IMG/VR virus record: IMGVR_UViG_3300036944_000366
Coordinates: 1-62,536 of that record
DNA length: 62,536 bases
Source: a virus
Lineage: Duplodnaviria > Caudoviricetes
Reading direction: 5' to 3' (one strand)
In this document: positions 25,901 through 54,963 of the stretch, one piece after another
How the letters are laid out: each line of letters begins with the position of its first letter
Numbering within the stretch: position 1 is the stretch's first letter
Notes under the pieces: model-generated
Told to the model about the DNA's origin: nothing
Seen by the model: the letters and a program-made list of their open reading frames with translations, nothing else
Database searches by the model: none
Program-made: the position numbers and the translations under genes

Positions 25901-27376
25901 GCCCGCAAACTGCTGCGCGAACCCATGGCCGCGTCGTTTACCGGCGGTCTGGAGTCAAACACGTTCTCGTCCATCTTCAAGGCAGGCGCTGAGTATCTAC
26001 GCATGAGCACTGGCCGCAGCGACATGCAGGCCAAGCTGATCGAGAAAGGCTTGATCCAGTCCAACATCTTCGCAGGCGACATGTCTGACATGAAGAAGAT
26101 GGCGCTCCAGCTTGCCAGCGGTAAAGACCAAAACGCTTTTGAAAAGCTCCTTGCTGCGGCTGACCGTTCTGCGATGCGGGCGGACGCCGCTACGCTGGCG
26201 CTGGTGCTCAAAAACGCTGAAGCCAACGGCTTGTCCGAAGTCGAGGCCGATATGGCCACGATGGAGTCGATGAACTTCTACAAGCGCGGGCTGTCGCCAA
26301 CGCTGCAATACGCAAGCCGCCTGATTCCGTTCTTCAACGCCCAGATTCAGGGTCTGAACGTGTTGGTCAAGGCAGCGCGAGGCAACATGCCGTTCGAGGA
26401 ACAGCAGCAAATCAAGCGCAAGTTCTTCAACAATGCGCTGTTGTTGACCGCCACCGGTCTGGTGTATGCCATGGCCATGGAAGACGACGAGACTTTCCGC
26501 AACGCACGCCCACGGGATAAGTACTCCAACTTCTTCATGCCGATCCCCGGCGTGGATGAGCCACTGAAGTTGCCAATCCCGTTTGAAGCGGGTTACTTCT
26601 TCTCCATGGCGGTTGCCGCTGTGGATGCAATGCGTGCCGAGACTGACGGCAAAGCGCAGTGGCAGGCTATCCGTGATCTGTTCTTGGGCTCGGTCCCCGG
26701 CTACTCGTCCATGGGCATGCCGCAGATCGTCAAGCCTGCCTTTGAGGTGTGGACCAACAAGAACTTCCTGACTGGCGGTCCCGTTGAGTCGTTGCGTTTG
26801 CAGGGCATGAACCCAGAAGAGCGCTACCTTGCCACCACGACAGAGCTGGCCAAGCAGATGAGCAAGGCGGTGCCTATCTTGTCCCCCGTCCAGATCGAGC
26901 ACATTGTGCGCGGGTACTTGGGTGTGCTGCCTCTGGCAGCAGCGGCTGGGGCCAACGGTTTGTTTGAACGTGAAGGCAAGGGCGAGAAGCCTGAAGGCCG
27001 TGCGTCAGACCTGCCGCTGGTGGGTACCGCCTTCCAGAAGAAGTACGGCGGTGCTGATGCTGACGTTGTGTTCCGTGAAGCCAAAGAAGCCGAGCAGACA
27101 CGCAACACGCTCAACAAAATGCTCAAGGAAGGCCGCAAAGAAGAGGCCATCGAGTTCCGTGATGCAAACCGTGCCGAGCTGGCGCTGGCTTCTGTCGCAG
27201 GGCAGTACCGCCAAGTGGTTGGGCGCATCAACGAGGACATCCGCCGCACGCAAGAGCGCACCGACTTGAACGCTCAGGAAAAGCGTATCCGACTGGACGC
27301 GCTGGACAAGGCCAAGCAAGACCGCGCCGATGCTTTCCTCAAAGCACAGCGCAGAATTGAAGAAGCTCAGCGATAA
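19946..27376 (+). CDS. Giant (2476 aa) polyvalent / ejection protein with zincin-like motif and LPD38-like C-terminus
   Basis: VHEIAGHFGL motif; C-terminal LPIPFEAG...KPAFEVWTNKNFLTG...SPVQIEHIVRGYLG. Confidence 0.75.
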   Translation: MADKIQLPNGAFFPVKEGESKEQALSVAKQMYPDAFAPPVAEKSKEDTKGFKAAAAAGFERLKGEAALTAGKLGLMDEAKAEQFQKEKQAAAQARFTPTEEGWTEAPFQKFKETLGGSVPYMLAPAAAGIAALAAPVSAPVAAGLGLLGAGAVSTGQFTGSNLAAQMETGKSLKESSGAAALAAAVPQALIDTAAMALLPGVGKLFGSVGSKLTTEQAKAIANQTLGKAVMDYTAKTGTAMTREGFTETVQQVLERLQAGTNLADEDARKEYIESFIGGAVLGGAVAPAGRYIERSGAKTQAAKVDREERNVAAKTAAEQARIAEEADAARKNTPEYAMEVGQQYDTLLQQFQAKQAQLKKPGKNADPVQKAEYADAQKELQALNGQLKELVPEYRRTAPIRAQMPETLELTPSPAETAAPTEAVEVDPTQLLERKRQAQQLLEQNQQELSDVTAAGNMAQFDAGMKQRKALQKEIGQIDAQLKQAGVEDVQTDPAAIQAQLEKEYAKLSNMAGAGFDPDKAERQRAKITKLETQLQSVAGGQQGLDFGATRTLELPLTAAQNQREAMAARGTAAGQQRIAGVEEEEQALLEEQRAQTERDLQEAQRVQALGGEFAGLQRMQAAPAGISDQFGLFGTEELPPAGSAGIGQMKQKLLGEDVTFTAEEDKPRDLRRVPGAEFKLRGRNEGTAPVTRDELADRLNRVLSTYDLSPEAVELLQRAEKALPQSGADYFALLDEQLAKIESGEEGVPRKGQSRTAELQTFPAAPAQQARASTTAPTEAGVRQVEQITGAVPGQAASKLKTPIAQPEAEDRRTGVRGAADVTKRVDDTQASTLRGPSAQAGELSLANELAEPLRIQEEAAREDTGQKSLFPEEQEKLGFIKGNRGAFQMFMKSKFVQNLRQQLRRDEEIAKRAQAIPALEKRANSLIAEIEDILKQYAEYRSADAVVKANKDVAKAKRDMAEIRAAASKSTVDRMLLAGAIEDLKQARKQVIEQGYTEGGVQELIANIDDVNAQLQDAQTDMALLNSALSVLDGQMQSFAAVQKLTALIDKAPSVERIDQAKQEFAAVRAELEVLQTENNELQTRLRKDAADKRRADEAVKAAERKAQAAAGQLKPSEQALNNLPNYDKATQYPALTEAQMLAREQGGTTPTLSAAETTQINGDPAQVLGGYRSRITDLEKLIRQSQDKSKTALAKDMVQPAQNLRDALDKAYKKAKSAAERDVLGPKLDAAEAKLAQAKAELANTQVIWVGMKKQINDLANVMARADWLEGLIAEGKIELEAPAAAKVRAKPTAEEAATTRAAQAKAAAERTTAPATSGEALTRSEAAKARQSQKTLFEGKGVPEGTAKEIPMTPAERLAAMQKTAAARNKALYRVSATTGPSMSVAQVQKVYDALTGAWVNKPETVVVADEKGLPIRIRNQAERDGMTGKIPGLYDPVSGKVYLVASNLRSVNDVILTTVHEIAGHFGLQSILGDTYAKTMTDIYNGNAAIRKAANAKMKQVKSLDQNTAVEEALAEQAELDPNAPDTRSAMRKIYDTLKKWVRDTLGLKDTVTDAQVNQIIANARKYVIQGGEAGTGTAGVATPSYRSKTTAPANALESLAQDITAQPKTLKEKLGNNLALQAEMQAVDMRAGLRDVLKFGDDNLFTQAMYHVRKAEQKMAQMFTVMNSGPLVAYKDEKGLVGYRSSNQNSAREVFDAIADIPVDDPQLKTNIAQAYMVAQRAQNKGLSKLDFGELGITEEKLQAALAAANADPALKDALENVRRKYNAYNKGLIEFLASSGRISKKTAADLLKDGDYVPYYRVRDNGTAELNFGNNVTFNVGDIRRQPYLAELKGGETKLLPLNEAIQQNTLLLTDMALTNNATKSVAYGLQALGKGMGPVDPKTGKPTNLMPIKPGKGPADARTIRFFQEPDPNKPDDTGERHVVVETKGTLAEGVPAELVVQSLEGSSLALPGFLKLGGVAADLLRAGVTRTPLYIARKLLREPMAASFTGGLESNTFSSIFKAGAEYLRMSTGRSDMQAKLIEKGLIQSNIFAGDMSDMKKMALQLASGKDQNAFEKLLAAADRSAMRADAATLALVLKNAEANGLSEVEADMATMESMNFYKRGLSPTLQYASRLIPFFNAQIQGLNVLVKAARGNMPFEEQQQIKRKFFNNALLLTATGLVYAMAMEDDETFRNARPRDKYSNFFMPIPGVDEPLKLPIPFEAGYFFSMAVAAVDAMRAETDGKAQWQAIRDLFLGSVPGYSSMGMPQIVKPAFEVWTNKNFLTGGPVESLRLQGMNPEERYLATTTELAKQMSKAVPILSPVQIEHIVRGYLGVLPLAAAAGANGLFEREGKGEKPEGRASDLPLVGTAFQKKYGGADADVVFREAKEAEQTRNTLNKMLKEGRKEEAIEFRDANRAELALASVAGQYRQVVGRINEDIRRTQERTDLNAQEKRIRLDALDKAKQDRADAFLKAQRRIEEAQR

Positions 27377-33482: not shown

Positions 33483-33498
33483 TGTCAAGCGTTGGACA
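33483..33498. promoter_or_regulatory. Imperfect palindrome, putative operator
   Basis: TGTCAAGCGTTGGACA; 14/16 identical to 46012-46027. Confidence 0.55.
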
Positions 33499-33532: not shown

Positions 33533-35092
33533 TCAAGAATTTATTTCAAGCGTAAACATCTCTGTCAGAAGTGAGCTATCGCTTACTTTCGCTCCAAGGG
33601 CTTTGAACATCTTGGACTCCACGGGCGAACTCTGGATGTGGAAGACGGTCACCTTGTCGGAGTTCTGCCCCTTGCGGTCGGCACGGGCAATACACTGGAT
33701 GTACTGCTCAACGCTCATCAACGGGCCGTAGAACACCACGGTGTCAGCGGCTGTCAGCGTAATGCCGTGCGCTGTAGCCTGCGGCTGCATGACCAGCACC
33801 CTTGGGTCAGTGTCGGTCTGGAAGCGGTGGATGATGTCGCCTCGTTTGTTGGCCGACACGCCGCCGTGGATGCACTCGTTGGTGATGCCCTTGGATGTCA
33901 GGTGCCGCTGGATGGTCTCGATGCTGGCGCGGAACAACGCGAAGATGATGACCTTGCGCTGCGTCTCCTCCAGAATTTCCTCCAACACGCCAAGGCGTGG
34001 GCCAGCGTCGAACTCCACCACCTCTTTGGTATCCGTGAGCGCAGCACCGCAACTGACTTGCAGCAACTTACTCAGCATAGCAGCGGCGTTGACCGCTGTG
34101 ATGACCTCCCCTGCGGCTTGGACCAGCATCTGGTCCTTGAGCATGTTGTAGTACTTGGCCTGCTGCGGAGTCAGCGGAACCTCACGGGTCAGCGTCATCA
34201 CTGGCGGCAAGTCAAGGCACTGGTCTTTGGAGAAGCGGATCGCTGGTTGCAGCGCGTTGAACACACGGTCACGCGCATCAGGCTTGGGGGCCCACTTGTA
34301 CAGCGTGATCTTGTTCATCACCGAGTCGCGCCATCCTGTGTAGAACAGCGGCACGTTGTCAGGGTTGACCAGCTTGGCCAGCCCATACGCATCAGCAGGC
34401 GACTGCGATGCAGGTGTGCCCGTCATCATCCACAGGTGGGTCGTGGGGCCAATGACAGACTTGAGCGTCTTCCAGCGCTTGGTGGTCACGGTCTTGTAGG
34501 CGTTGGCCTCGTCAACAATCACCAGATCAAAGCGCCCATCATTGATGACCTCATCGGCAATCAGGTTCAGTCCGTCGTAGTTGCAGATCACGAACTCGTA
34601 GTCCTGCTGAATCATCTCGATGCGCCGTGATGACTTGGTGTGGTGCGCCACGATGGCCGAGCGGTGGATGATGCTGTTGTTCAGATCACTGAGCCATGCG
34701 GAGTGCATGATCGACAGTGGGCACAGTATCAACACACGCCGCACAAAGCCTAGCTTCATCAAGTAGTCAGCCGCCCACAGCGCAGCAAGCGTCTTGCCTG
34801 TGCCGGGATCGTTGAAACAAAACGCACGCTTGTGCATGGTCAGAAACGAGGCCGTCTCTACTTGGTGAGCCATAGGCTTGTAGCGCCCCGGCCAGTTATA
34901 GCGCCGTGTGATCGGTGACTGGATGTCCTTCACGCCGAGGTTCTTCAGAACACGCGCCTCATCGAGGCCCCAGTACACAGCCACATCGAAGCCGCCGTCA
35001 TCACGTTCAATGACTTTGTGCTTCGGAATGATCTTGTACTTCTCAGGGTTGCGTGTCCTGAAGACGACGGCCTTGTCGTCAATGATGTCCAT
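33533..35092 (-). CDS. SNF2-family helicase
   Basis: DPGTGKT, IVDEA, MTGTP, HGITLTAA, QCIARADRKGQ. Confidence 0.92.
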   Translation of the reverse strand: MDIIDDKAVVFRTRNPEKYKIIPKHKVIERDDGGFDVAVYWGLDEARVLKNLGVKDIQSPITRRYNWPGRYKPMAHQVETASFLTMHKRAFCFNDPGTGKTLAALWAADYLMKLGFVRRVLILCPLSIMHSAWLSDLNNSIIHRSAIVAHHTKSSRRIEMIQQDYEFVICNYDGLNLIADEVINDGRFDLVIVDEANAYKTVTTKRWKTLKSVIGPTTHLWMMTGTPASQSPADAYGLAKLVNPDNVPLFYTGWRDSVMNKITLYKWAPKPDARDRVFNALQPAIRFSKDQCLDLPPVMTLTREVPLTPQQAKYYNMLKDQMLVQAAGEVITAVNAAAMLSKLLQVSCGAALTDTKEVVEFDAGPRLGVLEEILEETQRKVIIFALFRASIETIQRHLTSKGITNECIHGGVSANKRGDIIHRFQTDTDPRVLVMQPQATAHGITLTAADTVVFYGPLMSVEQYIQCIARADRKGQNSDKVTVFHIQSSPVESKMFKALGAKVSDSSLLTEMFTLEINS

Positions 35093-35107
35093 TACTTCTC
35101 CGTGTGG

Positions 35108-35353
35108 TTATTTTGAACTGGCGCGGTTCTTGGCAACACTGCGCATGCGCAGGTTACTGCGGGCGGATGTGCCACCACTCTTGAGCGGCTTGATGTGGTC
35201 AACATCTTTGCCGTCTCCTTTGCTGGCTGCGCCCTCGGCCTCCATGATGCGGCGGGCTTTCACGCGCTCACCTCGCTTGGCGACTTGCTCGGGCTTGCCG
35301 TGGAAGTCTTTGTACTCTTGCTTGTAGTTACGTTTGCTGGGGTCTTGTGCCAT
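35108..35353 (-). CDS. Small HNH endonuclease
   Basis: DVDHIKPLKSGG...SNLR...N; ATG at 35353. Confidence 0.8.
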   Translation of the reverse strand: MAQDPSKRNYKQEYKDFHGKPEQVAKRGERVKARRIMEAEGAASKGDGKDVDHIKPLKSGGTSARSNLRMRSVAKNRASSK

Positions 35354-41790: not shown

Positions 41791-41972
41791 GTGCCCTCCT
41801 TGGGTTCATCAAAATCAAACCACTCATGTATTTCGTTGAGCACCTCACGCACGATTGACTCGTTGATGTCTGCCGTGCTTGGCGCATCGTTGTGCTTGTA
41901 GGCCCTTGTGTGCCCAATAACTACTCCGTCAGTGATGCACTGCTCAAGCAACTGGGTAAATTTTGGTCTCAT
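41787..41972 (-). CDS. Hypothetical protein
   Basis: ATGA overlaps. Confidence 0.65.
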   Translation of the reverse strand: MRPKFTQLLEQCITDGVVIGHTRAYKHNDAPSTADINESIVREVLNEIHEWFDFDEPKEGT

Positions 41973-46006: not shown

Positions 46007-46240
46007 TTATTTGTCGAGCGTTAGACATTTGTCAACACCAATTTGCAATTCTTTTTTAAGTTCTGCAATCTGGTAGTCGAGGCTTCGCCTCTTGCGCCAT
46101 GCTTGGTCTTCGTTTTGCAGGTCAGACGGGCAGTTACGCACAGCGTGAGCCGGTCTTGCGTAGCGGTTGCAATCAGCGATGGCTTCGTCCAGTTTGGCTT
46201 GCAAGTCAGAAAGAGTTTGTTGATAGGGAAGTCCGGTCAT
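46007..46240 (-). CDS. Hypothetical protein
   Basis: AAGGAG RBS, ATGA overlap. Confidence 0.6.
   Translation of the reverse strand: MTGLPYQQTLSDLQAKLDEAIADCNRYARPAHAVRNCPSDLQNEDQAWRKRRSLDYQIAELKKELQIGVDKCLTLDK
46012..46027. promoter_or_regulatory. Imperfect palindrome upstream of rtcB, putative operator
   Basis: TGTCGAGCGTTAGACA; matches 33483-33498. Confidence 0.55.
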
Positions 46241-46736: not shown

Positions 46737-46755
46737 GCTTTCTCCTTGGGTTAAC

Positions 46756-47850
46756 TTATGCGGCGTAAGAGTGGTCAAAGATCGTTGCAAGCACGGCCGT
46801 GGGGTCGTACGTTGCGCTGTTCTTGAGCGCCTCGGTAAGCACAGCCTCGTTGATCTTGTTGCGGTCGATCAGGCGCTCGGCCATCTCTGGGTCTTCGGGC
46901 CACACGGACTCACACATCAGCTCGATGAGCCACTGCTTACTGCCAGCCTGTGCGTCATACAGCGCCTCTTGCAACTCGATGGTGTACGAGTCGTAGTCGT
47001 AGTCGTCATCGCTGAGGTGATGCCATGCAGAGTTGACACCCGTCAAGGCCGAGGTGTACCACGATGAGTAGTCGATGTGCTCGACCACCGCAGGGTCACG
47101 GTCAGTAGGCAGGCTGTCCCAGTCGATGAGCGCCACACGATCCGCCAGTGCTTGGAAGTGGACGATGTCGAGCGACTCCTTGTCGCTGTGCTCAGAGTAG
47201 TAACCCACGCTGATGTTGGTGCACTCGGGTATGACCTCGATGAACTCGGCCGTGTCTGTGTACACACCTGAGTTGTCGGGCAGGTACATCAGGGTATCGT
47301 CGGCGTTGAGCGCGGCGCTGAGAGCATCGGCAAACGCATCGGAACAGCAACGCCCACGACCTTGGTGCGTGATGACACTGTCGATACCCCTGCGGTCAAA
47401 GGCAATAGCGCGGTCGAACTCAGAGAGAAGTTCTCCCTGTGTCTTGGCGATGTGTGTCGCACCGATACCGCCGCACTCCTCGCCTTGCGTGAAGATGTAG
47501 TAGGCATCAACGCCAGCGTGTAGCAGGTGCATGAGCATCGCCACACCCGCGCCATCGTCAGCACCCAGCGCGGCACCGTCAGCGTACCAGTGCGTGCTGG
47601 TCTGCTTGATCTTGTTGGGGCCTTCCTTGCGGTGCACAGTATCGACGTGCGCAACGAACAGCGTCCGGTTGGTGTCGCTGATGCGTGTGTCAACGTGCAG
47701 GTTACCTGCCGCATCGCGGTGCGTCTTGGCATACAACGGCGCACGTTCTTCCAGCCAGTCAGTCAGGCGCTTGGTTCCCTCGCTGTCATGTGGGCGCATC
47801 ATTGAGAGCGCACGGGCAAGGGTCTTGTACAGGATGGTTGATTTGTTCAT
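46756..47850 (-). CDS. M28/M20-clan zinc peptidase
   Basis: AHVDTVH, LGADDGAG, GEECG, FDRRG, YTDT, NISVGY..EH. Confidence 0.85.
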   Translation of the reverse strand: MNKSTILYKTLARALSMMRPHDSEGTKRLTDWLEERAPLYAKTHRDAAGNLHVDTRISDTNRTLFVAHVDTVHRKEGPNKIKQTSTHWYADGAALGADDGAGVAMLMHLLHAGVDAYYIFTQGEECGGIGATHIAKTQGELLSEFDRAIAFDRRGIDSVITHQGRGRCCSDAFADALSAALNADDTLMYLPDNSGVYTDTAEFIEVIPECTNISVGYYSEHSDKESLDIVHFQALADRVALIDWDSLPTDRDPAVVEHIDYSSWYTSALTGVNSAWHHLSDDDYDYDSYTIELQEALYDAQAGSKQWLIELMCESVWPEDPEMAERLIDRNKINEAVLTEALKNSATYDPTAVLATIFDHSYAA

Positions 47851-47863
47851 GGATGTTTCTCCT

Positions 47864-49342
47864 TCAAAATGTGGGCATAACAAATGGGGTAGGCTCGGCC
47901 TCGACCGCTGTCTCGGCCTCATCCTCGTCATCCTCGTCATCCGCGTCTGGCTCAGGTGCATGGTCAGGGTGGTACAGCTCGCCGTCAACTATTACGTTGT
48001 CCTCGTCGTCGGTGTACCAGTTGCCTGACTCAGTGCACTGCCAGCAGTCCTCGGTCAGCGCGTACTGCTGGGTGTCATCGGCGTAGCAGATGTCGTCATC
48101 GTCAACGTGGTAGTACGCATCAGCGGAGTCGATGAACACCGCGTTGTCCATGTGCGCGTACTCGCCGTTGGCTAACTCAACGATGCTGTTGTCAGACAGG
48201 TAATTGCAGTGGTAGTAAGAATCTTGTGACCCAACATACACAGCGTCGTCGTTGTGCACATGGTACTCATGCCTGTTGCGGCCAGATACCAGTGTGTAGT
48301 TGTCGATACAGCACGGGCCGACATGCCTGTCACCGTGGTAGCCGATAGAGTAGCTGTCGTCATCGTCCATGCCTTGGCCGCAGTCATCGCAGGTACAGGT
48401 GTAGCCGTTGAGCATACCGCTGGTACTGCACGCCTCCCACCCGTCGTAGCTTGAGATGGTAAAGGTGTCAGTGCTCACGTCCTCGTCAACGTGCTGACAG
48501 TTGCCGTCGATGTACGGCATCAAGTACCCGCCCTGTCGAAGCGGATAGCGCTTGATGCGTGCTTCGCTAGGCCAGCCGCGCCACTTGGCATAACCCAAGC
48601 CCTGCAACATAGCCTCGATGGACTCGTCAGCACCTGAGTGCGAACTGTACTCACGCTCACGTTTGTATGAACGTACAAACCCTTTGGTCTCCCCGTCACC
48701 GTCCTCGAACACAAGGCAACGACCTAGCACCATACCGTCAGTGTCAGTACGCACAGCCATACCCCAGCCAAGCGATGGGTCATACACAGCGTAGGGATGG
48801 CGCTCCACCCTGTCGTCGCACGCGATGTCGAAGCTCGGACTCATACACGAGCGAGGCCCGTGGATCACAGCGTGGACCATCTTGTCCATGTCCTTGGTGA
48901 TGTCAGTCGTGCCGCCATAGGTGTACTGCGCAACCACGTCACGGATAAGGTTGGATGGTGCGTCAGGGAAGTGACGCGTCAGGTACTTACCGATGGTAGT
49001 CACGACAGCTTTGGCATCGCTGTCCCCGTTGTGCATAGCTGACTTCTCGTCGCGTGTATAGGCTAGGCGGTTTGGGTCAGTGATGGACTTGTGTGGCCAC
49101 TCAAGCAACAGTTGATGCCAGTCATCTGCACGATACTGGTGCTCGGTCATCATCTTGTACACAGCAGGGTGCAGTTGGTGCCGCTGGCGCTGTTGGTTGA
49201 ACCACTCGCGCCCCTGCACAACTGTCTCGTACTCTCCCGCGCGGATGCGTCTGAACACGCCATCCGATACGATGCGTGCGGCTTGCATGAACACATAGTC
49301 CATGAACTGGTGTGCTTCGTGTAGGCTTTTCCATGTAGGCAT
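47864..49342 (-). CDS. Hypothetical protein with acidic Cys/His-rich C-terminal repeats
   Basis: 492 aa; CDDC, PCC, CWQC; D/E-rich tail. Confidence 0.75.
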   Translation of the reverse strand: MPTWKSLHEAHQFMDYVFMQAARIVSDGVFRRIRAGEYETVVQGREWFNQQRQRHQLHPAVYKMMTEHQYRADDWHQLLLEWPHKSITDPNRLAYTRDEKSAMHNGDSDAKAVVTTIGKYLTRHFPDAPSNLIRDVVAQYTYGGTTDITKDMDKMVHAVIHGPRSCMSPSFDIACDDRVERHPYAVYDPSLGWGMAVRTDTDGMVLGRCLVFEDGDGETKGFVRSYKREREYSSHSGADESIEAMLQGLGYAKWRGWPSEARIKRYPLRQGGYLMPYIDGNCQHVDEDVSTDTFTISSYDGWEACSTSGMLNGYTCTCDDCGQGMDDDDSYSIGYHGDRHVGPCCIDNYTLVSGRNRHEYHVHNDDAVYVGSQDSYYHCNYLSDNSIVELANGEYAHMDNAVFIDSADAYYHVDDDDICYADDTQQYALTEDCWQCTESGNWYTDDEDNVIVDGELYHPDHAPEPDADDEDDEDEAETAVEAEPTPFVMPTF

Positions 49343-49432
49343 TTTGCTTTCTCCTTAGTTTCAAGTTTGGAATGATGGGTATACCGGTATGGTCGCCACC
49401 CATCAAGGCGTCAGAGAGAAACTCTCTCTTGA

Positions 49433-49672
49433 TTACTTGCGTGCTTTCTTCTTGGGCAGTGTGAACGTGCCGAGCCACTGCGTACCCTTGACCATCGGCT
49501 GGTACATGGCGATCTCGTATGGGTCTGTGTGCTTACAGGGCACAAGGAACAGGTTGTAGGTGTAGCCGTCCTTCTCCATCAGGTCGAGCAGTGCAGGCAG
49601 GTCACGCTCCTCGTTGGTTGTAGCCCATTGCGCTACGCTGGAAGCGTAGAAGTGGGAGTGGTTCTCTGTCAT
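49433..49672 (-). CDS. Early hypothetical protein
   Basis: AAGGAG RBS. Confidence 0.7.
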   Translation of the reverse strand: MTENHSHFYASSVAQWATTNEERDLPALLDLMEKDGYTYNLFLVPCKHTDPYEIAMYQPMVKGTQWLGTFTLPKKKARK

Positions 49673-49673
49673 G

Positions 49674-49880
49674 TCATTCTCCTTGGTTTATTTCATACAG
49701 GCGGTGCTGGCGGTAGAACTTGCAGAACAAGTCATCGAACGCAGAGAGAAGTTTCTCTCTGTTGGTGCTGTCCGCTACGTAGAACGCCCTTGCGATGTGC
49801 CCTGCGAAGCTCCCACCTTGGGACTCCATCAGTCGTGCCGCACTGAGCAGCATGTCACGGTCTAAGTCCATTGCTTTCAT
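49674..49880 (-). CDS. Early hypothetical protein
   Basis: AAGGAG RBS; GGSFAGHIARAFYVADSTN. Confidence 0.7.
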   Translation of the reverse strand: MKAMDLDRDMLLSAARLMESQGGSFAGHIARAFYVADSTNREKLLSAFDDLFCKFYRQHRLYEINQGE

Positions 49881-50089
49881 TTGCTTTCTCCTTGGTTAAG
49901 TAACTTGTCACGCCATGCGTTGAGGTCAGAGAGAACTTTCTCTCTCGTGCCTTTGTAGCCCATCATCTTGAGCGTTGAGTAGGCCGTTGGCCCACGGGAT
50001 TTGCTCAGCCCCTTGAGTTCTAGCTTGAGCATCTGGCGCAGTGTCAAGAGGCGAGCCGCCTCGATCTGCGATCCGGTCAGTGTTGTCAT
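49877..50089 (-). CDS. Early hypothetical protein
   Basis: AAGGAG RBS; LKLELKGL...AY. Confidence 0.7.
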   Translation of the reverse strand: MTTLTGSQIEAARLLTLRQMLKLELKGLSKSRGPTAYSTLKMMGYKGTREKVLSDLNAWRDKLLNQGESK

Positions 50090-50200
50090 GGATGTTTCTC
50101 CTTGCCGCCCTGCTTGAGGTAGGCTCGACCATGCGGGCGGCGTTGCATGGCCAAGCGGTTAAAGAGAGTTGTTGATAGGGAGAGAGAACTTCTCTCTGGG

Positions 50201-50971
50201 TTATTTGATGAGGTTGAGTAGGCCTGTCCATCGGGCAGGCAGGGGCATCGTTGGCTTGAGGTTGTCCATCGCAAGGTAGGCGCGTTGCAAGTCCATATCT
50301 CGGGCGTCGAGTTCGGCAATAAGCTCGGGGGCTGTTGCAAAAAGGCGCTCTTGGTCGATCTCGTCCTGCGCTTTCTTCATCTGGCCCACAAGGAACGCAC
50401 GCTGTATGACGTGGACATTGGGGGATACGCGGCGCTCGAACGGCACCTTTCTTTTACCTCTGACCGGATCGGGGACTGCATTAAACAGATCACGCACAAG
50501 GCGTTTGCTTTTGTCGCTGACGTAGTCTGCCCAATGTTCCCCGTTGTTGGGGATGGTGCGGCCAGTCTCCTCCTTGATGAAGGCCACGAACTGGCCCGGC
50601 GCAAACTCGCCTGCCTTTTGTAGCTTGACCAGCTTTGCGATCACCTCAACGAGCACGTCCTCGTAGGCCGACAGCGCCTTGTACTTGGCCGCTGTCCCTG
50701 CGTTACCAAACTCAGCGGCTACTTGGCGTTTGGCTTGGGACTTCATGGTGCGTACGCCGCCCAGCTCCATCCTTGCGGAAGACAGGATGTCGTCCCACAG
50801 TTGATGCGCCACGGTGGCCTTGATTTTCAGCTTGCGTTGCCGAGCCTTGGCCAGCTTCACGGCCTGCAAGATGTCACGCATCACGGGCACAGGGTACTTG
50901 TGCTCGGTCAGGTGGCGCTCCAAACGAGGCGCACTCATGGCCAACCAAGCGGGTTGGAGGACTTCTTCCAT
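50201..50971 (-). CDS. Early hypothetical protein
   Basis: AAGGAG RBS before ATG 50971; upstream extension in the ORF track is low-complexity non-coding sequence. Confidence 0.7.
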   Translation of the reverse strand: MEEVLQPAWLAMSAPRLERHLTEHKYPVPVMRDILQAVKLAKARQRKLKIKATVAHQLWDDILSSARMELGGVRTMKSQAKRQVAAEFGNAGTAAKYKALSAYEDVLVEVIAKLVKLQKAGEFAPGQFVAFIKEETGRTIPNNGEHWADYVSDKSKRLVRDLFNAVPDPVRGKRKVPFERRVSPNVHVIQRAFLVGQMKKAQDEIDQERLFATAPELIAELDARDMDLQRAYLAMDNLKPTMPLPARWTGLLNLIK

Positions 50972-51006
50972 ACTTTTACTCCTTAAAATTACGAATTGTA
51001 CAGGGG

Positions 51007-51348
51007 CTGTCCGGACTGTCCTAATTCTTTTACACATTAACGGTGGTTCATGGACGGGGCTTTGCCCCTCTGCAAGCCGCATGAACACAGGGTTCTTTGC
51101 TTTCGAGGGGGGCAGGTGTCCACTTATTCTTGCCAAAATAAAAAGAGAACACGCTTCACCTTTAATTTTATATATGTGTGTATGTGTGTGGATCTGTACG
51201 AACATATAAAAATTCATCTTCTTCTCTATATCTATATAAATATATATAGAAAGAGAGGACAGTTTTGAGCGGAGCCACGCAACCATGCGGGTTGCAGGCA
51301 GTCCACGCTTTGCTTTCATGTGTAAAAGTAAATGGACAGTCCGGACAG
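51007..51348. other. Origin-like element: imperfect inverted repeat around an AT-rich core
   Basis: CTGTCCGGACTGTCC (51007) / GGACAGTCCGGACAG (51334) plus further symmetric blocks. Confidence 0.55.
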
Positions 51349-51391
51349 TGGTTTTTTAACAACACTTTGAGGGCCAGAGAGAAGTTCTCTC

Positions 51392-51619
51392 TCAAAAGTT
51401 GGGGAAGGCTTGCTGTTGCCTGATGTTGACCTCATGCCACATCTGTGCGACGGAGGCGCAGGGGATGCTGATGGTGGTGCCTACCTTGCTCACGAGGTGG
51501 ATGGTGTAGGTGGGGTCTTTCTTGCCCAGTGGGTAGTAGGTTTGAGCGCACCAGAGTGCGCCTGCTTGGTCACGCCACTGTGTGACGGTTTCGAGGGCGG
51601 GTTGCTTGTTGTTACGCAT
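51392..51619 (-). CDS. Early hypothetical protein
   Basis: AAGGAG RBS before ATG 51619. Confidence 0.65.
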   Translation of the reverse strand: MRNNKQPALETVTQWRDQAGALWCAQTYYPLGKKDPTYTIHLVSKVGTTISIPCASVAQMWHEVNIRQQQAFPNF

Positions 51620-51630
51620 GGCTGTCTCCT

Positions 51631-51813
51631 TCAGTTGGTGTGGTGGATGCGGACATAGCGGGCCATGGCTTTGAGCATGACCTTTTGGGGGACGCAATAC
51701 TTGATTGCGATGAATTTGGCTACCAAGGGCAAGTACGTGGGGGAGATGCGCTTGAGTTGGTCGTGCAGTTCGTGGATGATGCGCTTGGCATCACGGGTGA
51801 CAAGGTTGTTCAT
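51631..51813 (-). CDS. Early hypothetical protein
   Basis: GGAG RBS. Confidence 0.6.
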   Translation of the reverse strand: MNNLVTRDAKRIIHELHDQLKRISPTYLPLVAKFIAIKYCVPQKVMLKAMARYVRIHHTN

Positions 51814-51954
51814 GGAAGTTTCTCCGATTGGTTTTGGCTATGAAGTCGCCGCCGTGATTGGCGAAGCCAGTGGCGGTTAGACACGGGGAGGAACAACGGG
51901 CCAGCCACGCCCGTTGAATTCGAGAGAGAAAATCTCTCTGAGAATCATTCGCAT

Positions 51955-52374
51955 TTACAGGGAACGCAGAACGATCAGGGCTTGCTTGAGTTGGGCCTCA
52001 AGGGAGTCGCCCTCGAAGTTGGCCAAGAAGTCCATCGCCGCCGCCGTGTGCACCTTGCTGATGCGCTGTTGCGCCGCAGGCTTGGCCTTGGCTTTGACCG
52101 GACGCACAACGTAGTAGCGGAAGTCACTCGAAGCGCGGTCAATGGCCTTGACTGCCTCTGGCTTTGCACCAGCGCCTTTGCCCAGAGAGAACATTCTCTC
52201 TGGGTTGCTCACGCCTTGGCCCTCAAGGTGGCCAAGCATCCACTCTTTGCGCAGTGCGCCTTGTTGCGTAGGGGTTGCGCTGGTGTAAGCCTTGTGGAAG
52301 GCGTCAGCCGCATCACGTAGGGCTGTTGTGTGGTTGCCGACATTGGTTGCGAATTGCTTGATGGATAAAGACAT
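51955..52374 (-). CDS. First gene of the early arm, hypothetical
   Basis: Strong RBS; basic helical protein. Confidence 0.7.
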   Translation of the reverse strand: MSLSIKQFATNVGNHTTALRDAADAFHKAYTSATPTQQGALRKEWMLGHLEGQGVSNPERMFSLGKGAGAKPEAVKAIDRASSDFRYYVVRPVKAKAKPAAQQRISKVHTAAAMDFLANFEGDSLEAQLKQALIVLRSL

Positions 52375-52431
52375 GGAAGTTTCTCCTTGGGTTGATGTAT
52401 CGGCTGGGCTGATTCCCTAACCGATGCCTCT

Positions 52432-52460
52432 ATTGTATGGAAGGGGGTGTTTCTAAGCAT
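52432..52460 (-). promoter_or_regulatory. Possible early promoter
   Basis: -10 TACAAT (52437-52432) followed by a leader hairpin and RBS; -35 is poor. Confidence 0.4.
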
Positions 52461-52658
52461 TACTGGCAGGGCCAAAGCTAGTACGGAAGACCCCACCGTA
52501 CCCCCACCAAGCCTTGTATGTGACGACAGCCCCGGTCCGCATGAACACTGTTTCACTCCCGCTCCCACCACTTTGTAAAAACTTAGACAACCACCCCCCT
52601 GTACAAAACCACACCCCCTCTAAAAAATTTTATAAAAATTTCAAAAAACTCGGGGCGT

Positions 52659-52689
52659 AAAAAAACCCCCCGCGTTGCCGTGGGGGGTT
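52659..52689 (-). terminator. Intrinsic terminator on minus strand
   Basis: AACCCCCC-ACG-GCAA-CGC-GGGGGG-U7. Confidence 0.8.
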
Positions 52690-52746
52690 AAGGGGTCTCT
52701 CAACCCAAGGAGAAGCAAAGGACCAACCGAAGTTGCACCCAAGCCG
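52659..52746 (-). ncRNA. Predicted ~90-nt anti-RBS small RNA
   Basis: Promoter TTGCTG-17-TATACT upstream, UUCG hairpin, UUUGCUUCUCCUUGGGUUGA tract, terminator; no ATG-initiated ORF. Confidence 0.6.
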
Positions 52747-52781
52747 GAAGTGAGTATATACTCTGCACATCGGGACAGCAA
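52733..52781. promoter_or_regulatory. Overlapping divergent sigma70-type promoters
   Basis: Palindrome GAGTATATACTC gives TATACT on both strands; + strand TTGCAC-18-TATACT, - strand TTGCTG-17-TATACT. Confidence 0.65.
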
Positions 52782-52838
52782 CCCGCAACTCTTTGGAGGG
52801 TAGGCAACAGAATGTTGCTGGGCCTCCGTCAGGACCAA

Positions 52839-53459
52839 ATGTTAGACCACCTCCTTGACTTCGACCCTGAAGTCCTGCCCAAATCTCAAGCGCCCGCCCC
52901 GGCGGAGAAGGTTGCGCCTGTTGAGCTGCTCAACGGCAAGATCAGTACAAACGACTGGTTGAAAGAAATGGGTGTCCCAGACGCTGAGACCGCGGTCTCT
53001 GAGTTGGAAAAGAAGCAGGCCCGGGAAACTTTCTCCGCGCTGACAACCGCATCCGCCATAAAAGAACAGCACGCCTTGATCTCCTCGATTGAGACGCCCG
53101 AGGCCGTGAAGCACCTTGTGGGAATGCTGACGGCCTATGACTGGGAGTTTGTAAGCCAAGCGAAAGAATTGCGCGGGTATGCGGTGGCCAAGATTTTGGA
53201 AGAGTGTGAGAGCCCCAACGCCAACATCCGGCTCAAAGCGCTGGGCCTTTTGGGCAAGGTCACCGAGATCGGGCTGTTCACAGAGAAGATTGAGGTCAAG
53301 AAGACTGACATGACCGAGGCCGAGATCGACCAGCGCCTGAAAGAGAAGCTGGCCAAGTTCATGGATGTGTCCGACGCCGACGTTACGGACCTTGTGGACA
53401 TCACAGACGTCACCCCAACCCCCGCCCCTGATGACGACCAACCCACCACTGACGCCTGA
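52839..53459 (+). CDS. Putative terminase small subunit
   Basis: Directly upstream of terL; IRLKALGLLGK...GLFTEKIEV. Confidence 0.65.
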   Translation: MLDHLLDFDPEVLPKSQAPAPAEKVAPVELLNGKISTNDWLKEMGVPDAETAVSELEKKQARETFSALTTASAIKEQHALISSIETPEAVKHLVGMLTAYDWEFVSQAKELRGYAVAKILEECESPNANIRLKALGLLGKVTEIGLFTEKIEVKKTDMTEAEIDQRLKEKLAKFMDVSDADVTDLVDITDVTPTPAPDDDQPTTDA

Positions 53460-54963
53460 GCAAGCCTCTGCGCTGTTCAAGAACCTCGGCAAGCTGACAG
53501 CGACCGAGAAGTTGGAGGCGTTGGAGCTTTTGGACAAGGCGCAGGAGCACAAGCAGAAGAATTTGGCCCGCTCGGACATGATCGAGTTCGCCAAGGCGAT
53601 GTATCCGGGCTTCAAAATCGGGCCGCACCACAGGAAACTGGCCAAAATCTTTGCAGAAGTGATCGCCGGGACCAAAAAACGGGTCATCATCAACATTGCG
53701 CCGCGTATGGGTAAGTCTGAGTTCAGCTCTTACCTGTTCCCGGCGTTCTTTTTGGGCAATTTCCCCGAGAAGAAGATCATCATGGGCACGCACACGGCCG
53801 GTTTGTCGGAAGACTTCGGCCGCAGGGTGCGAAACCTACTGGAAGACGACGACTACCATGGACTTTTCCCCCAAACGCTGGTTGCTGCTGACCAAAAGGC
53901 GGCTGGTAAGTGGTCTACAAGCGCTGGCGGTCAGTACTATGCTGCTGGTGTCGGCGGTGCTCTTGCTGGTCGTGGTGCTGATCTGTTCGTTATTGACGAT
54001 CCTCACTCGGAGCAGGACGTTAAGGCCAACTCACGGCTGGCTTTCGACACTGCATGGTCTTGGTTCCAAACAGGCCCGCTCCAGCGACTGATGCCGGGCG
54101 GTGCGATCATCATCGTGATGACGCGCTGGGGCAAACTGGACCTGACTGGACGCCTGATTGACTACCAGTCGAAGAACCCCAACGCCGAGCCGTGGGAGAT
54201 CGTGGAGCTTCCGGCCATCCTCAACGAGGACATGCCCAACGAGAAGTCGCTCTGGCCAGAGCAGTGGCCGCTGGCCACCCTCAAGGCTACCAAGGCCAGC
54301 ATTGACCCCCAGTACTGGAACGCCCAGTACATGCAGCAGCCCACCAGCAACAGCGCAGCCATCATCTCGCGCAAGTCTTGGAGGGTGTGGACCCGTGACG
54401 AGCCGCCCCGGTGCGACTTCGTCATCCAGAGCTGGGACACGGCATTTGAGACCAGCAACACGGCCGACTACTCTGCGTGCACAACGTGGGGGGTGTTCTA
54501 CAACGAGGAAGAGAACGACAAGCCGCAGGTGATCTTGCTGGACGCGTTCAAAGACCGGATGGCCTTCCCCGAGCTCAAGGTGATCGCACTCAAGCACTAC
54601 AAAGAGTGGGAGCCTGACGCGTTCATCGTGGAGAAGAAAGCGGCCGGAGCGCCGCTGATCCAAGAGCTGCGGGCCATGGGCATCCCGGTCGACGAGTTCA
54701 GCCCCAGCCGGGGCAACGATAAAATTGTGCGGCTTAACGCGGTGTCGGACCTGTTTGCCTCTGGCTCGGTCTGGGCACCAGACACGCGGTGGGCACGCGA
54801 GGTGATCGAGGAAGTTGCATCCTTTCCCAACGGGGAGAACGACGACTACGTTGACACCACATCTCAGGCGCTGTTACGCTTTCGCCGGGGCGGCTTCATA
54901 CCGCTTGAAACCGACGAGCAAGAAGAGCGCTTTTACCAAGCCCGCCGGGCTGCGTACTATTAA
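53431..54963 (+). CDS. terL: Terminase large subunit
   Basis: IAPRMGKS Walker A, VIDDPH Walker B, VMTRW, SWDTA, NDDYVD nuclease motifs. Confidence 0.95.
   Translation: MTTNPPLTPEQASALFKNLGKLTATEKLEALELLDKAQEHKQKNLARSDMIEFAKAMYPGFKIGPHHRKLAKIFAEVIAGTKKRVIINIAPRMGKSEFSSYLFPAFFLGNFPEKKIIMGTHTAGLSEDFGRRVRNLLEDDDYHGLFPQTLVAADQKAAGKWSTSAGGQYYAAGVGGALAGRGADLFVIDDPHSEQDVKANSRLAFDTAWSWFQTGPLQRLMPGGAIIIVMTRWGKLDLTGRLIDYQSKNPNAEPWEIVELPAILNEDMPNEKSLWPEQWPLATLKATKASIDPQYWNAQYMQQPTSNSAAIISRKSWRVWTRDEPPRCDFVIQSWDTAFETSNTADYSACTTWGVFYNEEENDKPQVILLDAFKDRMAFPELKVIALKHYKEWEPDAFIVEKKAAGAPLIQELRAMGIPVDEFSPSRGNDKIVRLNAVSDLFASGSVWAPDTRWAREVIEEVASFPNGENDDYVDTTSQALLRFRRGGFIPLETDEQEERFYQARRAAYY

What the first reader, a model, noticed from the sequence alone, without database searches (positions are those of the whole stretch)
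52659..52781. Candidate anti-Shine-Dalgarno sRNA wired to the late promoter and complementary to the shared RBS of early genes
Seen in sequence: the palindrome GAGTATATACTC supplies a TATACT -10 box on both strands. On + it pairs with TTGCAC and points at the terminase operon. On - it pairs with TTGCTG (17-bp spacer) and points at a ~90-nt unit with no ATG-initiated ORF. That unit contains a CAAC-UUCG-GUUG hairpin, the tract CUUUGCUUCUCCUUGGGUUGA, and a strong intrinsic terminator (52689-52659). The tract is the reverse complement of the leader used by many early genes: 15 nt perfect to the first early gene (52381-52395), 13 nt at 46740 and 44781, 11 nt near 41796, and 10 nt upstream of rtcB, 49672, 49880 and the SPFH gene. 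Several targets (36507, 49342, 49880, 46736) can extend pairing through UUGCU/UGCU with a one-base bulge. Inference: one sRNA, switched on together with late transcription, silences a whole early regulon whose RBSs have converged on one sequence, and may also hit host AAGGAG mRNAs. I do not know of a description of this arrangement.
Basis: partly seen in the sequence, partly recalled or inferred. Interest (0 to 1): 0.9.

Follow-up and report, generated by a model that had tools for sequence, protein, structure and literature searches.

The report
Conserved phage anti-ribosome-site small RNA
Between the early and late genes, this uncultured lake phage and over a hundred relatives keep a small folded RNA gene whose open stretch mirrors the ribosome-binding sites of the phage's early genes, so it probably damps their translation, though the RNA has never been observed.

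Summary

**The RNA gene is real on comparative evidence.**
- Window 52746-52659 (minus strand) is a conserved, structured RNA gene of about 85 nt.
- A covariance model finds one copy per related locus, always divergent from terS (67 of 81 sources, then 43 of 54).
- Its three hairpins show compensatory changes in 22 of 25 pairs. G-U pairs, GNRA/UUCG loops and folding energy all favour the minus strand.
- The only invariant body segment, GCUU(U)CUCC, is unpaired.

**It matches early ribosome sites.** GGAGAA occurs in 24 of 44 early start regions against 2 of 37 late ones, and three further complete genomes show the same split.

- The 15-nt match to the first early gene is specific to this window.
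- Tract and ribosome-site covariation is inconclusive.
- Co-activation with the late promoter is unproven. Published work on bidirectional promoters suggests competition instead.

**One clade lacks the module.** It keeps the early operon and has a degenerate minus-strand -10. The unit is therefore a stand-alone gene, not an early leader.

No transcript data exist.

It works like the CU-rich anti-RBS sRNAs of Burkholderia but is no Rfam member. The scan has noted analogous phage RNAs on other DNA.

The parts
52659..52746 (-). Predicted small RNA, about 85-88 nt. The 5' end is inferred as 7 nt after the -10; the 3' end is the U-tail.
   Evidence: Covariance model R1 scores 113 bits here and finds one hit per related locus. 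The structure is supported by covariation. The minus strand is favoured by G-U pairs, folding energy and loop types.
52714..52745 (-). SL1: an outer helix plus the inner CAAC-UUCG-GUUG hairpin (52724-52735). It contains the complement of the late -35.
   Evidence: Nine of its 10 pairs show changes on both sides, and 92.5% of cells are paired. Relatives carry insertions and deletions that keep a hairpin.
52707..52716 (-). Seed tract GCUUCUCCUU. Positions 52709-52716 are invariant in 39 distinct versions. The tract is the complement of AAGGAGAAGC.
   Evidence: Invariant columns G31-C38. Mean probability of being unpaired is 0.87 for (U)UCUCC against 0.38 for the rest of the RNA.
52693..52706 (-). 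SL2: GGGUU-GAGA-GACCC, a 5-bp stem with a GNRA tetraloop.
   Evidence: All 5 pairs show changes on both sides, and 97.4% of cells are paired. The loop is GNRA in 17 of 43 versions on the minus strand and in 0 on the plus strand.
52659..52689 (-). Intrinsic terminator: a G+C-rich stem, a GCAA loop and seven U.
   Evidence: Eight of its 10 pairs show changes on both sides. The A-run on + is conserved in all relatives. The tool lists the equivalent site as a minus-strand terminator in L053, L043 and L029.
52752..52763 (.). Palindrome GAGTATATACTC, which holds the two overlapping -10 hexamers (minus 52753-52758, plus 52757-52762).
   Evidence: The minus-strand hexamer is TATACT (21) or TACACT (24) in 45 distinct versions that carry the RNA module. 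It is TACACC in 6 of 6 distinct versions that lack the module.
52776..52781 (-). -35-like TTGCTG of the small-RNA promoter, with a 17-bp spacer.
   Evidence: Read from the sequence. TTG is kept at this spacing in divergent groups, for example TTGTAC in the L063 group.
52733..52738 (+). -35-like TTGCAC of the late (terS) promoter, with an 18-bp spacer to TATACT.
   Evidence: Read from the sequence. TTGC is invariant in the 38 distinct relatives aligned.
52769..52789 (+). Conserved block ATCGGGACAGCAACCCGCAAC at the predicted 5' end of the late mRNA. It overlaps the small-RNA -35.
   Evidence: It occurs once in the window and is nearly invariant in most relatives.
52381..52395 (-). Leader of the first early gene, with a 15-nt perfect complement to the small RNA. 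This match is specific to the window.
   Evidence: Inverted repeat I1. It is not conserved in relatives.
46740..46754 (-). Example target: the start region of the 41-aa early gene. It has a 13-nt match that extends further with a bulge.
   Evidence: duplex energy -26.1 kcal/mol.
49886..49895 (-). Example target: a start region of the AAGGAGAAAGCAAAUG type.
   Evidence: duplex energy -24.1 kcal/mol.

Best explanation
The minus strand at 52746-52659 encodes a stand-alone small regulatory RNA of about 85 nt.

**Transcription.** It is transcribed from a sigma-70-like promoter whose -10 hexamer overlaps that of the divergent late (terS) promoter by 2 bp. It ends at a strong intrinsic terminator, which lies upstream of the early-operon control region.

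**Fold.** The RNA folds into SL1, an open tract, SL2 and the terminator.

**Proposed action.** The open tract 5'-UUGCUU(U)CUCCUU-3' is the complement of the Shine-Dalgarno sequence plus spacer (AAGGAGAA(A)GCAA) shared by many early and replication genes. I infer that it base-pairs with these start regions in trans, competes with the 16S rRNA anti-SD, and lowers early-protein synthesis as the RNA accumulates. Late genes mostly lack this motif and would escape.

**Shown here:** the gene's conservation, fold and strand; the open seed; and the early-versus-late bias in complementarity.

**Inferred:** transcription, the exact ends, timing, pairing in vivo and repression.

**Confidence split.** I put the existence of the RNA gene at about 0.85. 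I put the early-translation damping role at about 0.5, which is the confidence given below.
For: **1. One copy per genome in a fixed place.** Model R1 hits 67 of 81 sources and 43 of 54 further sources at E <= 1. Every hit is on the minus strand just upstream of terS. The window has a single hit. The complete genomes G001 and G002 have one hit each; G003 has none at E <= 0.01.

**2. The structure covaries.**
- 94.9% of cells are paired, against 74.4% in shuffles.
- 22 of 25 pairs have changes on both sides.
- The covariation score is 0.446 against 0.145, reached by 0 of 500 shuffles.
- Sliding the partners gives at most 60.6% paired.

**3. The strand is minus.**
- There are 93 G-U/U-G cells against 7 A-C/C-A cells.
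- The minus strand folds better in 38 of 39 versions, with mean energy -38.4 against -31.7 kcal/mol.
- All 43 distinct versions fold into three hairpins.
- GNRA loops number 27 (terminator), 17 (SL2) and 13 (SL1), plus 8 UUCG loops, on the minus strand. The plus-strand reading gives 2 GNRA loops in all.

**4. The seed is conserved and open.** GCUU(U)CUCC is the only invariant block of the RNA body. It is unpaired with probability 0.87, against 0.38 for the rest.

**5. Complementarity favours early genes.**
- Duplex energy is -17.5 (44 early genes) against -12.5 kcal/mol (37 late genes), p = 5e-6. Only 1 of 300 flank shuffles did as well.
- GGAGAA lies in early against late start regions as follows: window 24/44 vs 2/37, G001 22/39 vs 1/42, G002 23/53 vs 3/42, G003 16/31 vs 3/44.

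**6. It is an independent module.**
- The clade L058/59/62/68, L074/78 and L098-L108 lacks the whole unit but keeps the late promoter, the early leader and the early genes.
- In that clade the minus-strand -10 is TACACC in 6 of 6 distinct versions. It is TATACT or TACACT in 45 of 45 versions that carry the unit.

**7. The promoter geometry fits a described class.** The predicted divergent start sites are 23 bp apart. PMC12825309 names 23 bp as one of the common spacings at bidirectional promoters (passage read).
Against: - No RNA data exist: no run could be listed, so the transcript, its ends and its timing are unobserved.
- Both promoters are weak by consensus. Each -35 matches 3 of 6 positions, and the tool calls none.
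- The structural alignment was fitted to the model, which inflates the pair counts. The folding-energy and loop tests do not depend on that alignment.
- The 15-nt match to gene 1 is specific to this window.
- No orthologous target is consistently strong. The gene-1 family averages -14.7 kcal/mol, and only 30% of its members reach -18 or better.
- Covariation of tract and start regions is weak.
  - Start regions with two A's occur only in genomes whose tract has two A's (8 against 0). These genomes are close relatives.
  - Own against cross matching is 8.36 against 7.49 nt, but it is confounded by relatedness, and four tracts were mis-anchored by my script.
  - In the most divergent lineages (L109, L114, L115, L131, L133, L141) a genome's own start regions match no better than foreign ones.
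- Any exposed CUCCU pairs with any strong SD. The early bias may therefore simply reflect stronger SDs in early genes (GGAG in 35/44 against 12/37).
- The early or late class was assigned by strand only.
- The module-less clade is probably a single loss event.
Confidence: 0.5

Rival explanations
1. The RNA is real, but its main job is not early-gene shut-off. It could be a general anti-SD competitor aimed at host mRNAs with strong AGGAG sites. It could also bind and titrate a protein such as Hfq, S1 or a translational regulator.
For: - Only the GGAG-complement core is kept in the most divergent lineages, while the spacer part drifts.
- No conserved phage target was found.
- Own and foreign start regions match equally well in the divergent lineages.
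- Bacterial CU-rich double-hairpin sRNAs act on many RBSs, and overexpressing ncS27 attenuates growth (PMC5688073, passages read).
Against: - In most of the family the flanks match the phage's own commonest start region, GGAGAAAGCAAATG.
- Late phage genes avoid the motif.
- The host is unknown, so host targets could not be examined.
Confidence: 0.2
2. The unit is the terminated leader (attenuator) of the early operon. The early promoter would be the minus-strand promoter at the palindrome, and the anti-SD tract would act in cis on read-through transcripts by sequestering the first gene's RBS.
For: - The unit lies upstream of the early genes and points towards them.
- In the window the tract has a 15-nt perfect complement in the gene-1 leader, 304 nt downstream.
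- I could not identify a consensus early promoter in the window.
Against: - A whole clade lacks the unit and the minus-strand -10, yet keeps the conserved early leader and the early genes.
- The 15-nt match is not conserved.
- The terminator is strong and universally kept.
- By my reading, distant relatives carry a TTGACA/TAGACA -35 inside an operator-like palindrome right after the terminator. The tool did not call it, because its -10 ends in A.
Confidence: 0.08
3. The transcript is a functionless by-product of a symmetrical late promoter. The terminator exists only to keep this divergent transcription out of the early operon.
For: - Bidirectional promoters are common consequences of -10 symmetry (PMC12825309, abstract and passages read).
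- The two -10 hexamers share one palindrome.
Against: - Compensatory changes maintain SL1 and SL2, not just the terminator.
- An 8-nt unpaired block is invariant across 39 distinct versions while its surroundings vary.
- GNRA and UUCG loops are kept.
Confidence: 0.07
4. The plus-strand copy of the tract is a genuine translation start for a mini-ORF (a leader peptide of about 11 codons) that ends at the late -10 box and couples translation to late-promoter activity.
For: - In 22 of 39 distinct versions, ATG (16), TTG (5) or GTG (1) follows GGAG at start-site spacing.
- Several of these ORFs have 10-12 codons and stop just before the palindrome.
Against: - 17 of 39 versions, including the window (AAG), have no start codon there, and frames and lengths vary from 4 to over 40 codons.
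- The site lies upstream of the late -35, so the late transcript would not contain it.
- G-U pairs, folding energy and loop types all favour the minus strand.
Confidence: 0.04
5. The element works at the DNA level only: the inverted repeat or palindrome is a packaging or operator site with no RNA role.
For: - The unit sits directly upstream of terS.
- The -10 palindrome changes symmetrically in many relatives (AGTATATACT to AGTGTACACT).
Against: - The 15-nt inverted repeat is unique to the window.
- Asymmetric palindrome variants exist, and each half still reads as TAnAnT.
- DNA sites do not explain the strand-asymmetric G-U pairing or the hairpin covariation.
Confidence: 0.03

Closest known systems
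CU-rich 'double-hairpin' / 'toxic' small RNAs of Burkholderiales (Rfam RF02278; ncS03, ncS05, ncS27, ncS62 of B. cenocepacia; PMC5688073 and PMC4603805, passages read)
   Same: - Both are short RNAs (57-92 nt) built of hairpins plus an intrinsic terminator.
[quoted passage not shown]
- In the Burkholderia RNAs, 55-80% of predicted interactions fall on start regions, and overexpressing ncS27 attenuates growth.
- The window gives weak sub-threshold matches to RF02278, ncS54 and anti-hemB.
   Different: - The score is 19.6 bits against a gathering score of 50, so it is not a member.
- It is phage-encoded and single-copy.
- It has three hairpins.
- It sits back-to-back with the terS promoter.
- Its seed matches the phage's own early start regions.
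T4 RegA translational repressor (recalled from general knowledge; the review PMC3014915 was seen in a search listing only)
   Same: The proposed logic is the same: one phage factor that recognises the start regions of many early mRNAs and shuts off their translation.
   Different: RegA is a protein. Here the factor would be an RNA that acts by base-pairing.
Phage antisense RNAs such as P22 sar, lambda OOP and P1 c4 (recalled; no paper read)
   Same: They are small phage RNAs with intrinsic terminators that block ribosome binding or destabilise an mRNA.
   Different: Those RNAs are transcribed opposite or next to one specific target and are fully complementary to it. This RNA has no gene on its opposite strand and would act in trans on many start regions through a short seed.
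Bacterial bidirectional promoters with pseudo-symmetrical -10 regions (PMC12825309, abstract and passages read)
   Same: - The two -10 hexamers lie on opposite strands within one near-palindrome.
- The predicted divergent start sites are 23 bp apart, one of the common spacings named in the paper.
   Different: - The start sites were not measured here.
- The paper reports that activators of one direction tend to inhibit the other. That argues against simple co-activation of the small RNA and the late genes.

Membership tests
Rfam RF02278 Betaproteobacteria toxic / double-hairpin sRNA | Score at or above the family's gathering threshold (50 bits) | tested here: not met
   The score is 19.6 bits, E = 0.064-0.19. 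No family matches at gathering level anywhere in the window.
Rfam RF02278 Betaproteobacteria toxic / double-hairpin sRNA | Unpaired CU-rich stretch complementary to RBSs, flanked by hairpins, with a terminator | tested here: met
   The unpaired (U)UCUCC has P = 0.87 and lies between SL1 and SL2, followed by the terminator. The family's description comes from PMC5688073.
Trans-acting base-pairing sRNA (general kind) | Own promoter and intrinsic terminator, and no conserved ORF | tested here: met
   - The -10 and -35 are conserved, and the -10 is lost together with the gene.
- The terminator covaries.
- The RNA has no AUG, and the plus-strand ORF is not conserved.
- Promoter activity itself was not measured.
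Trans-acting base-pairing sRNA (general kind) | Transcript detected and target repression shown | not testable with these tools
   No RNA run was listed, and no cultured host is known.
Cis-antisense phage RNA (sar / OOP type) | Encoded opposite its target gene | tested here: not met
   No gene lies on the plus strand at 52659-52746. Complementary sites are spread over 30-52 kb.
Promoter-proximal terminated leader (attenuator) of the early operon | The operon depends on this promoter and on read-through of the terminator | tested here: not met
   The module-less clade keeps the early leader and genes.
Bidirectional promoter (pseudo-symmetrical -10) | Two -10 hexamers on opposite strands in one near-palindrome, with divergent start sites 10, 18 or 23 bp apart | tested here: inconclusive
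   The sequence geometry predicts 23 bp (start sites at 52746 and 52769, each 7 nt after its -10). The start sites were not measured. The spacing classes come from PMC12825309.

The most novel reading that the evidence does not exclude
One 450-bp hub holds the early promoter, the late promoter and an RNA timer. RNA polymerase binds the shared palindrome in one of two orientations and makes either late mRNA or the small RNA. The small RNA would then be an RNA counterpart of T4 RegA. It would recognise a 'private' start-region tag, GGAGAA(A)GCAA, carried by the early regulon but not by late genes, and switch that whole class off after transcription. It may have arisen as an inverted copy of a gene start. 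That would explain why its plus strand still looks like an RBS followed by ATG in many relatives.
Probability: 0.3. Interest if true: 0.8.

Novelty: new variant of a known kind. Interest (0 to 1): 0.62.

Why it matters
- **A gap in phage biology.** Temporal control in phages is usually explained by transcription. Class-wide translational shut-off is known mainly from the T4 RegA protein.
- **A new mechanism if confirmed.** A conserved phage RNA that reads a shared ribosome-site tag on early genes would be a simple RNA-only way to time gene expression.
- **A large natural data set.** The family has more than 100 sequence variants and one natural knock-out clade. These give ready-made material for compensatory-mutation tests.
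- **Possibly widespread.** Earlier notes of this scan describe analogous RNAs in unrelated phages, so the strategy may be common. I did not check those notes here.
- **Practical use.** The covariance model allows this RNA to be annotated in lake viromes.

Tried and rejected
**Searches that found nothing**
- Expression data: the look-up of sequencing runs (kind rna, 9 kb around the locus) listed no RNA holder.
- blastn of 51900-53500 against named phages found no match.
- The named phages DSL-LC04 and 023Pt_psg01 (about 52% TerL identity) have a different gene order and no R1 hit.
- Rfam gave nothing at gathering level and only chance-level matches below it.

**Promoters**
- The sigma-70 scan called no promoter in 51800-53400.
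- It called no minus-strand promoter after the terminator in L053, L043 or L029.
- The position of the early promoter is therefore my reading of alignments, not a tool result.

**Tests with a negative or unclear result**
- Covariation of the 15-nt repeat with the gene-1 leader: rejected.
- Link between the A-count of the tract and of the start regions: suggestive but confounded by relatedness.
- Own against cross-genome matching: inconclusive. Four tracts (L135, L018, L022, L024) were anchored on the wrong AAGGA by my script.
- Search for a conserved orthologous target: none found.
- Plus-strand mini-ORF: considered and rejected.

**Method limits**
- The MAFFT-only alignment gave RNAalifold just the GCAA/UUGC helix and the terminator. 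The full structure needed the covariance model, whose seed of 7 sequences included one mis-aligned row (L022).
- The gene lists come from my own simple ORF caller, not from a curated annotation. A few calls are dubious, for example 'gene 1' of L022 and L069. Five 'odd' ORFs were left out of the early and late classes.

**Side checks**
- Pfam and PHROGs on neighbouring proteins identified RtcB, a helicase, a DNA polymerase, a peptidase and terminase domains. The first four early proteins gave nothing.
- Host: three MAG-binned contigs are labelled Burkholderiaceae, Limnohabitans and Phycisphaerales. This is a weak hint only.
- The search of earlier findings by sequence found no look-alike window.

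**Literature**
- I searched for a published phage anti-SD sRNA of this kind. Judged by titles and abstract starts only, the listings show no such description.
- Supplementary files were not consulted.
Full report
**Context.**
- The window is a complete virus record of 62,536 bp. Its 127-bp terminal repeat probably marks a circular assembly.
- Plus-strand genes run from about 52812 through the end and on to 27376. They include the small and large terminase subunits and large structural proteins.
- Minus-strand genes run from 52374 down to 27515. They include RtcB, a helicase, a DNA polymerase, a DUF927 primase-type protein and many small ORFs.
- I call these two blocks late and early. That is an assignment by gene content and strand, not by measurement.
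- The finding lies in the 440-bp gap between the two blocks.

- CCAAGGAGAA occurs 7 times against 0.09 expected. Six copies are on the minus strand in gene leaders, and one is on the plus strand inside the unit.
- The 15-mer has 15 matches at up to 3 mismatches against 1.43 expected.
- The sigma-70 scan calls neither promoter, because each -35 matches only 3 of 6 positions.

**It is a conserved RNA gene.**
- The small terminase has 173 relatives in viral contigs, of which the best 80 were kept. A second scan from a divergent member found 200, again keeping 80.
- The intergenic DNA is alignable in 46 sequences, 38 of them distinct.
- A covariance model was built from 7 close versions with the window's predicted fold.
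- The model finds exactly one hit per locus, always on the strand opposite terS and directly upstream of it. It hit 67 of 81 sources at E <= 0.01 and 43 of 54 further sources at E <= 1.
- It also hit a related contig binned with a MAG.
- On the 44 distinct rows of the resulting alignment:
  - 94.9% of cells are standard pairs, against 74.4% in shuffles.
  - 22 of 25 pairs show changes on both sides.
  - The covariation score is 0.446 against 0.145, reached by 0 of 500 shuffles.
  - Sliding the partners by 1-3 columns gives at most 60.6% paired.
- That alignment was fitted to the model, so I added tests that do not depend on it:
  - All 43 distinct full-length versions fold into three hairpins on their own.
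  - The minus strand is more stable than the plus strand in 38 of 39 versions, with mean energy -38.4 against -31.7 kcal/mol.
  - G-U/U-G cells outnumber A-C/C-A cells 93 to 7.
  - GNRA loops number 27 (terminator), 17 (SL2) and 13 (SL1), plus 8 UUCG loops, on the minus strand. The plus-strand reading gives 2 GNRA loops in all.
- These tests make a minus-strand RNA the best reading of the structure.

**Anatomy.**
- SL1 (52714-52745) varies by insertions and deletions that keep a hairpin.
- The only invariant block of the body is GCUU(U)CUCC. It lies between SL1 and SL2.
- The mean probability of being unpaired is 0.87 for (U)UCUCC, against 0.38 for the rest of the RNA.
- In the predicted folds the UUGC part of the tract can pair with the 5' end or with the GCAA of SL1. 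The reliably open seed is therefore about UUCUCCUU.

**Promoter.**
- The two -10 hexamers overlap by 2 bp within the palindrome.
- Across relatives the minus-strand hexamer is TATACT (21) or TACACT (24) in 45 distinct versions. The plus-strand hexamer is TATACT, TACACT, TACATT or TACAGT.
- Asymmetric variants exist, so each half behaves as a -10 rather than as a strict palindrome.
- One clade lacks the whole unit, from terminator to SL1: L058/59/62/68, L074/78 and L098-L108, all with at least 90% terS identity to one another.
  - It keeps the late -10, the AT-rich block, the conserved early leader and the early genes.
  - In all 6 of its distinct versions the minus-strand hexamer has become TACACC, losing the final T.
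  - This is probably a single event. It still ties that hexamer to the RNA, and it shows that early transcription does not depend on the unit.
- The predicted start sites (52746 and 52769) are 23 bp apart. A study of E. coli bidirectional promoters names 23 bp as one of the common spacings. The same study reports that activating one direction tends to inhibit the other (PMC12825309, abstract and passages read).

**Targets.**
- In the window, duplex energies between the tract and gene start regions are -17.5 kcal/mol for 44 early genes and -12.5 kcal/mol for 37 late genes (Mann-Whitney p = 5e-6).
- When CUCCUU is kept and the flanks are shuffled, the mean is -13.8 +/- 1.1 kcal/mol. Only 1 of 300 shuffles did as well as the real tract.
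- The motif GGAGAA lies in early against late start regions as follows:

| Genome | Early | Late |
|---|---|---|
| Window | 24/44 | 2/37 |
| G001 | 22/39 | 1/42 |
| G002 | 23/53 | 3/42 |
| G003 | 16/31 | 3/44 |

- Many relatives carry the exact start region GGAGAAAGCAAATG on several early genes. In those relatives the tract is its perfect complement. The window's tract has one A fewer, which leaves a one-base bulge.

**What does not hold.**
- The 15-nt match with the first early gene is unique to the window. In 43 other distinct versions the longest shared stretch is 4-10 nt.
- No orthologous gene is a consistently strong target.
- Start regions with two A's occur only in genomes whose tract has two A's (8 against 0), but those genomes are close kin.
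- Own-genome matching exceeds cross-genome matching (8.36 against 7.49 nt, 0 of 5000 permutations).
  - This result is confounded by relatedness.
  - It is weakened by four mis-anchored tracts.
  - It is absent in the most divergent lineages, where the spacer part of the tract has drifted and only the GGAG complement remains.
- The firm statement is therefore 'an exposed anti-SD seed whose flanks, in most of the family, match the commonest early start region'. It is not 'tract and regulon co-evolve'.

**Rivals.**
- Plus-strand mini-ORF. It exists in 22 of 39 versions, but its frame and length are not conserved and the window has none. The strand evidence also speaks against it.
- Early-leader attenuator with cis pairing. 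It is contradicted by the module-less clade.
- Functionless divergent transcript. It does not explain the invariant open block or the covariation in SL1 and SL2.
- DNA-only packaging or operator site. It does not explain the strand-asymmetric pairing.
- A role against host mRNAs or in protein titration. This cannot be excluded and is the strongest rival.

**Comparison with known systems.**
- No Rfam family matches at its threshold.
- The best sub-threshold matches are Burkholderia CU-rich sRNAs: RF02278 at 19.6 bits against 50, plus ncS54 and anti-hemB.
- Those 'double-hairpin' RNAs carry unpaired CU-rich stretches that are reverse complements of RBSs. Overexpressing ncS27 attenuates growth (PMC5688073, passages read; PMC4603805; the review PMC10987360).
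- The phage RNA works like them but is not a member.
- In logic it resembles the T4 RegA protein. That comparison is recalled, not tested.
- My two literature searches listed no description of a phage RNA of this kind, judged by titles and abstract starts only.
- Earlier notes of this scan report analogous anti-SD RNAs in other phages. One of them (e1-6240881) named the Burkholderia family that I then checked.

**Verdict.**
- The unit is a well-supported new small-RNA family of an uncultured freshwater phage clade. The host may be among the Burkholderiales, on weak binning evidence only.
- Its most likely role is damping translation of the phage's early genes through an anti-SD seed.
- I put the gene's existence at about 0.85 and the mechanism at about 0.5.
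- The timing and the link with the late promoter remain open.

Noticed in passing
window 47422-52201: Eight palindromes of the form CAGAGAGAA-N2-3-TTCTCTCTG lie in the first 5 kb of the early block, several of them inside coding sequence. They could be an operator set or RNA hairpins.
   Followed up: partly
window 52400-52600 (minus strand): The G-rich leader between the small-RNA terminator and the first early gene holds blocks conserved in all relatives, including the clade without the small RNA (TGGGAGCGGGT..AGTGTTC and TGGGGGTACGGTGGGG). It may be a structured 5' UTR or an unusual promoter region.
   Followed up: partly
window 52620-52652; 33483-33498; 46012-46027; relatives L028-L053 just after the terminator: A conserved AT-rich block follows the terminator. 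In distant relatives, TGTC-N8-GACA palindromes lie next to it and contain a TTGACA/TAGACA -35-like hexamer. This looks like an operator over the early promoter.
   Followed up: partly
whole window and genomes G001-G003: The two gene classes use different ribosome sites. GGAGAA occurs in about half of the minus-strand (early) start regions and in under 10% of the plus-strand (late) ones. The split holds in four complete genomes.
   Followed up: yes
window 52769-52789: ATCGGGACAGCAACCCGCAAC is nearly invariant at the predicted 5' end of the late mRNA, with a CGGG/CCCG stem. It could be a 5' hairpin or a regulator site.
   Followed up: no
window 52812-52842: Relatives align to AAATGTTAGA at 52840. 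The terS start is therefore more likely the ATG at 52840 than the one at 52812.
   Followed up: no
window 35093-35117 (leader of helicase gene 33533-35092): This start region resembles the plus-strand copy of the tract over about 22 nt, including the first codons (ATGGAC against AAGGAC). It gave the lowest duplex energy, -28.8 kcal/mol. The resemblance fits an origin of the RNA as an inverted copy of a gene start.
   Followed up: no
window 19946-27376: The 2476-aa late protein has only an LPD38 'large polyvalent protein' domain near its C-terminus. No polymerase domain was found.
   Followed up: no
L165-L167: Close relatives of the terminase lie on short contigs binned with MAGs labelled Burkholderiaceae, Limnohabitans and Phycisphaerales. 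This is only a weak host hint. L165 carries the small RNA.
   Followed up: partly
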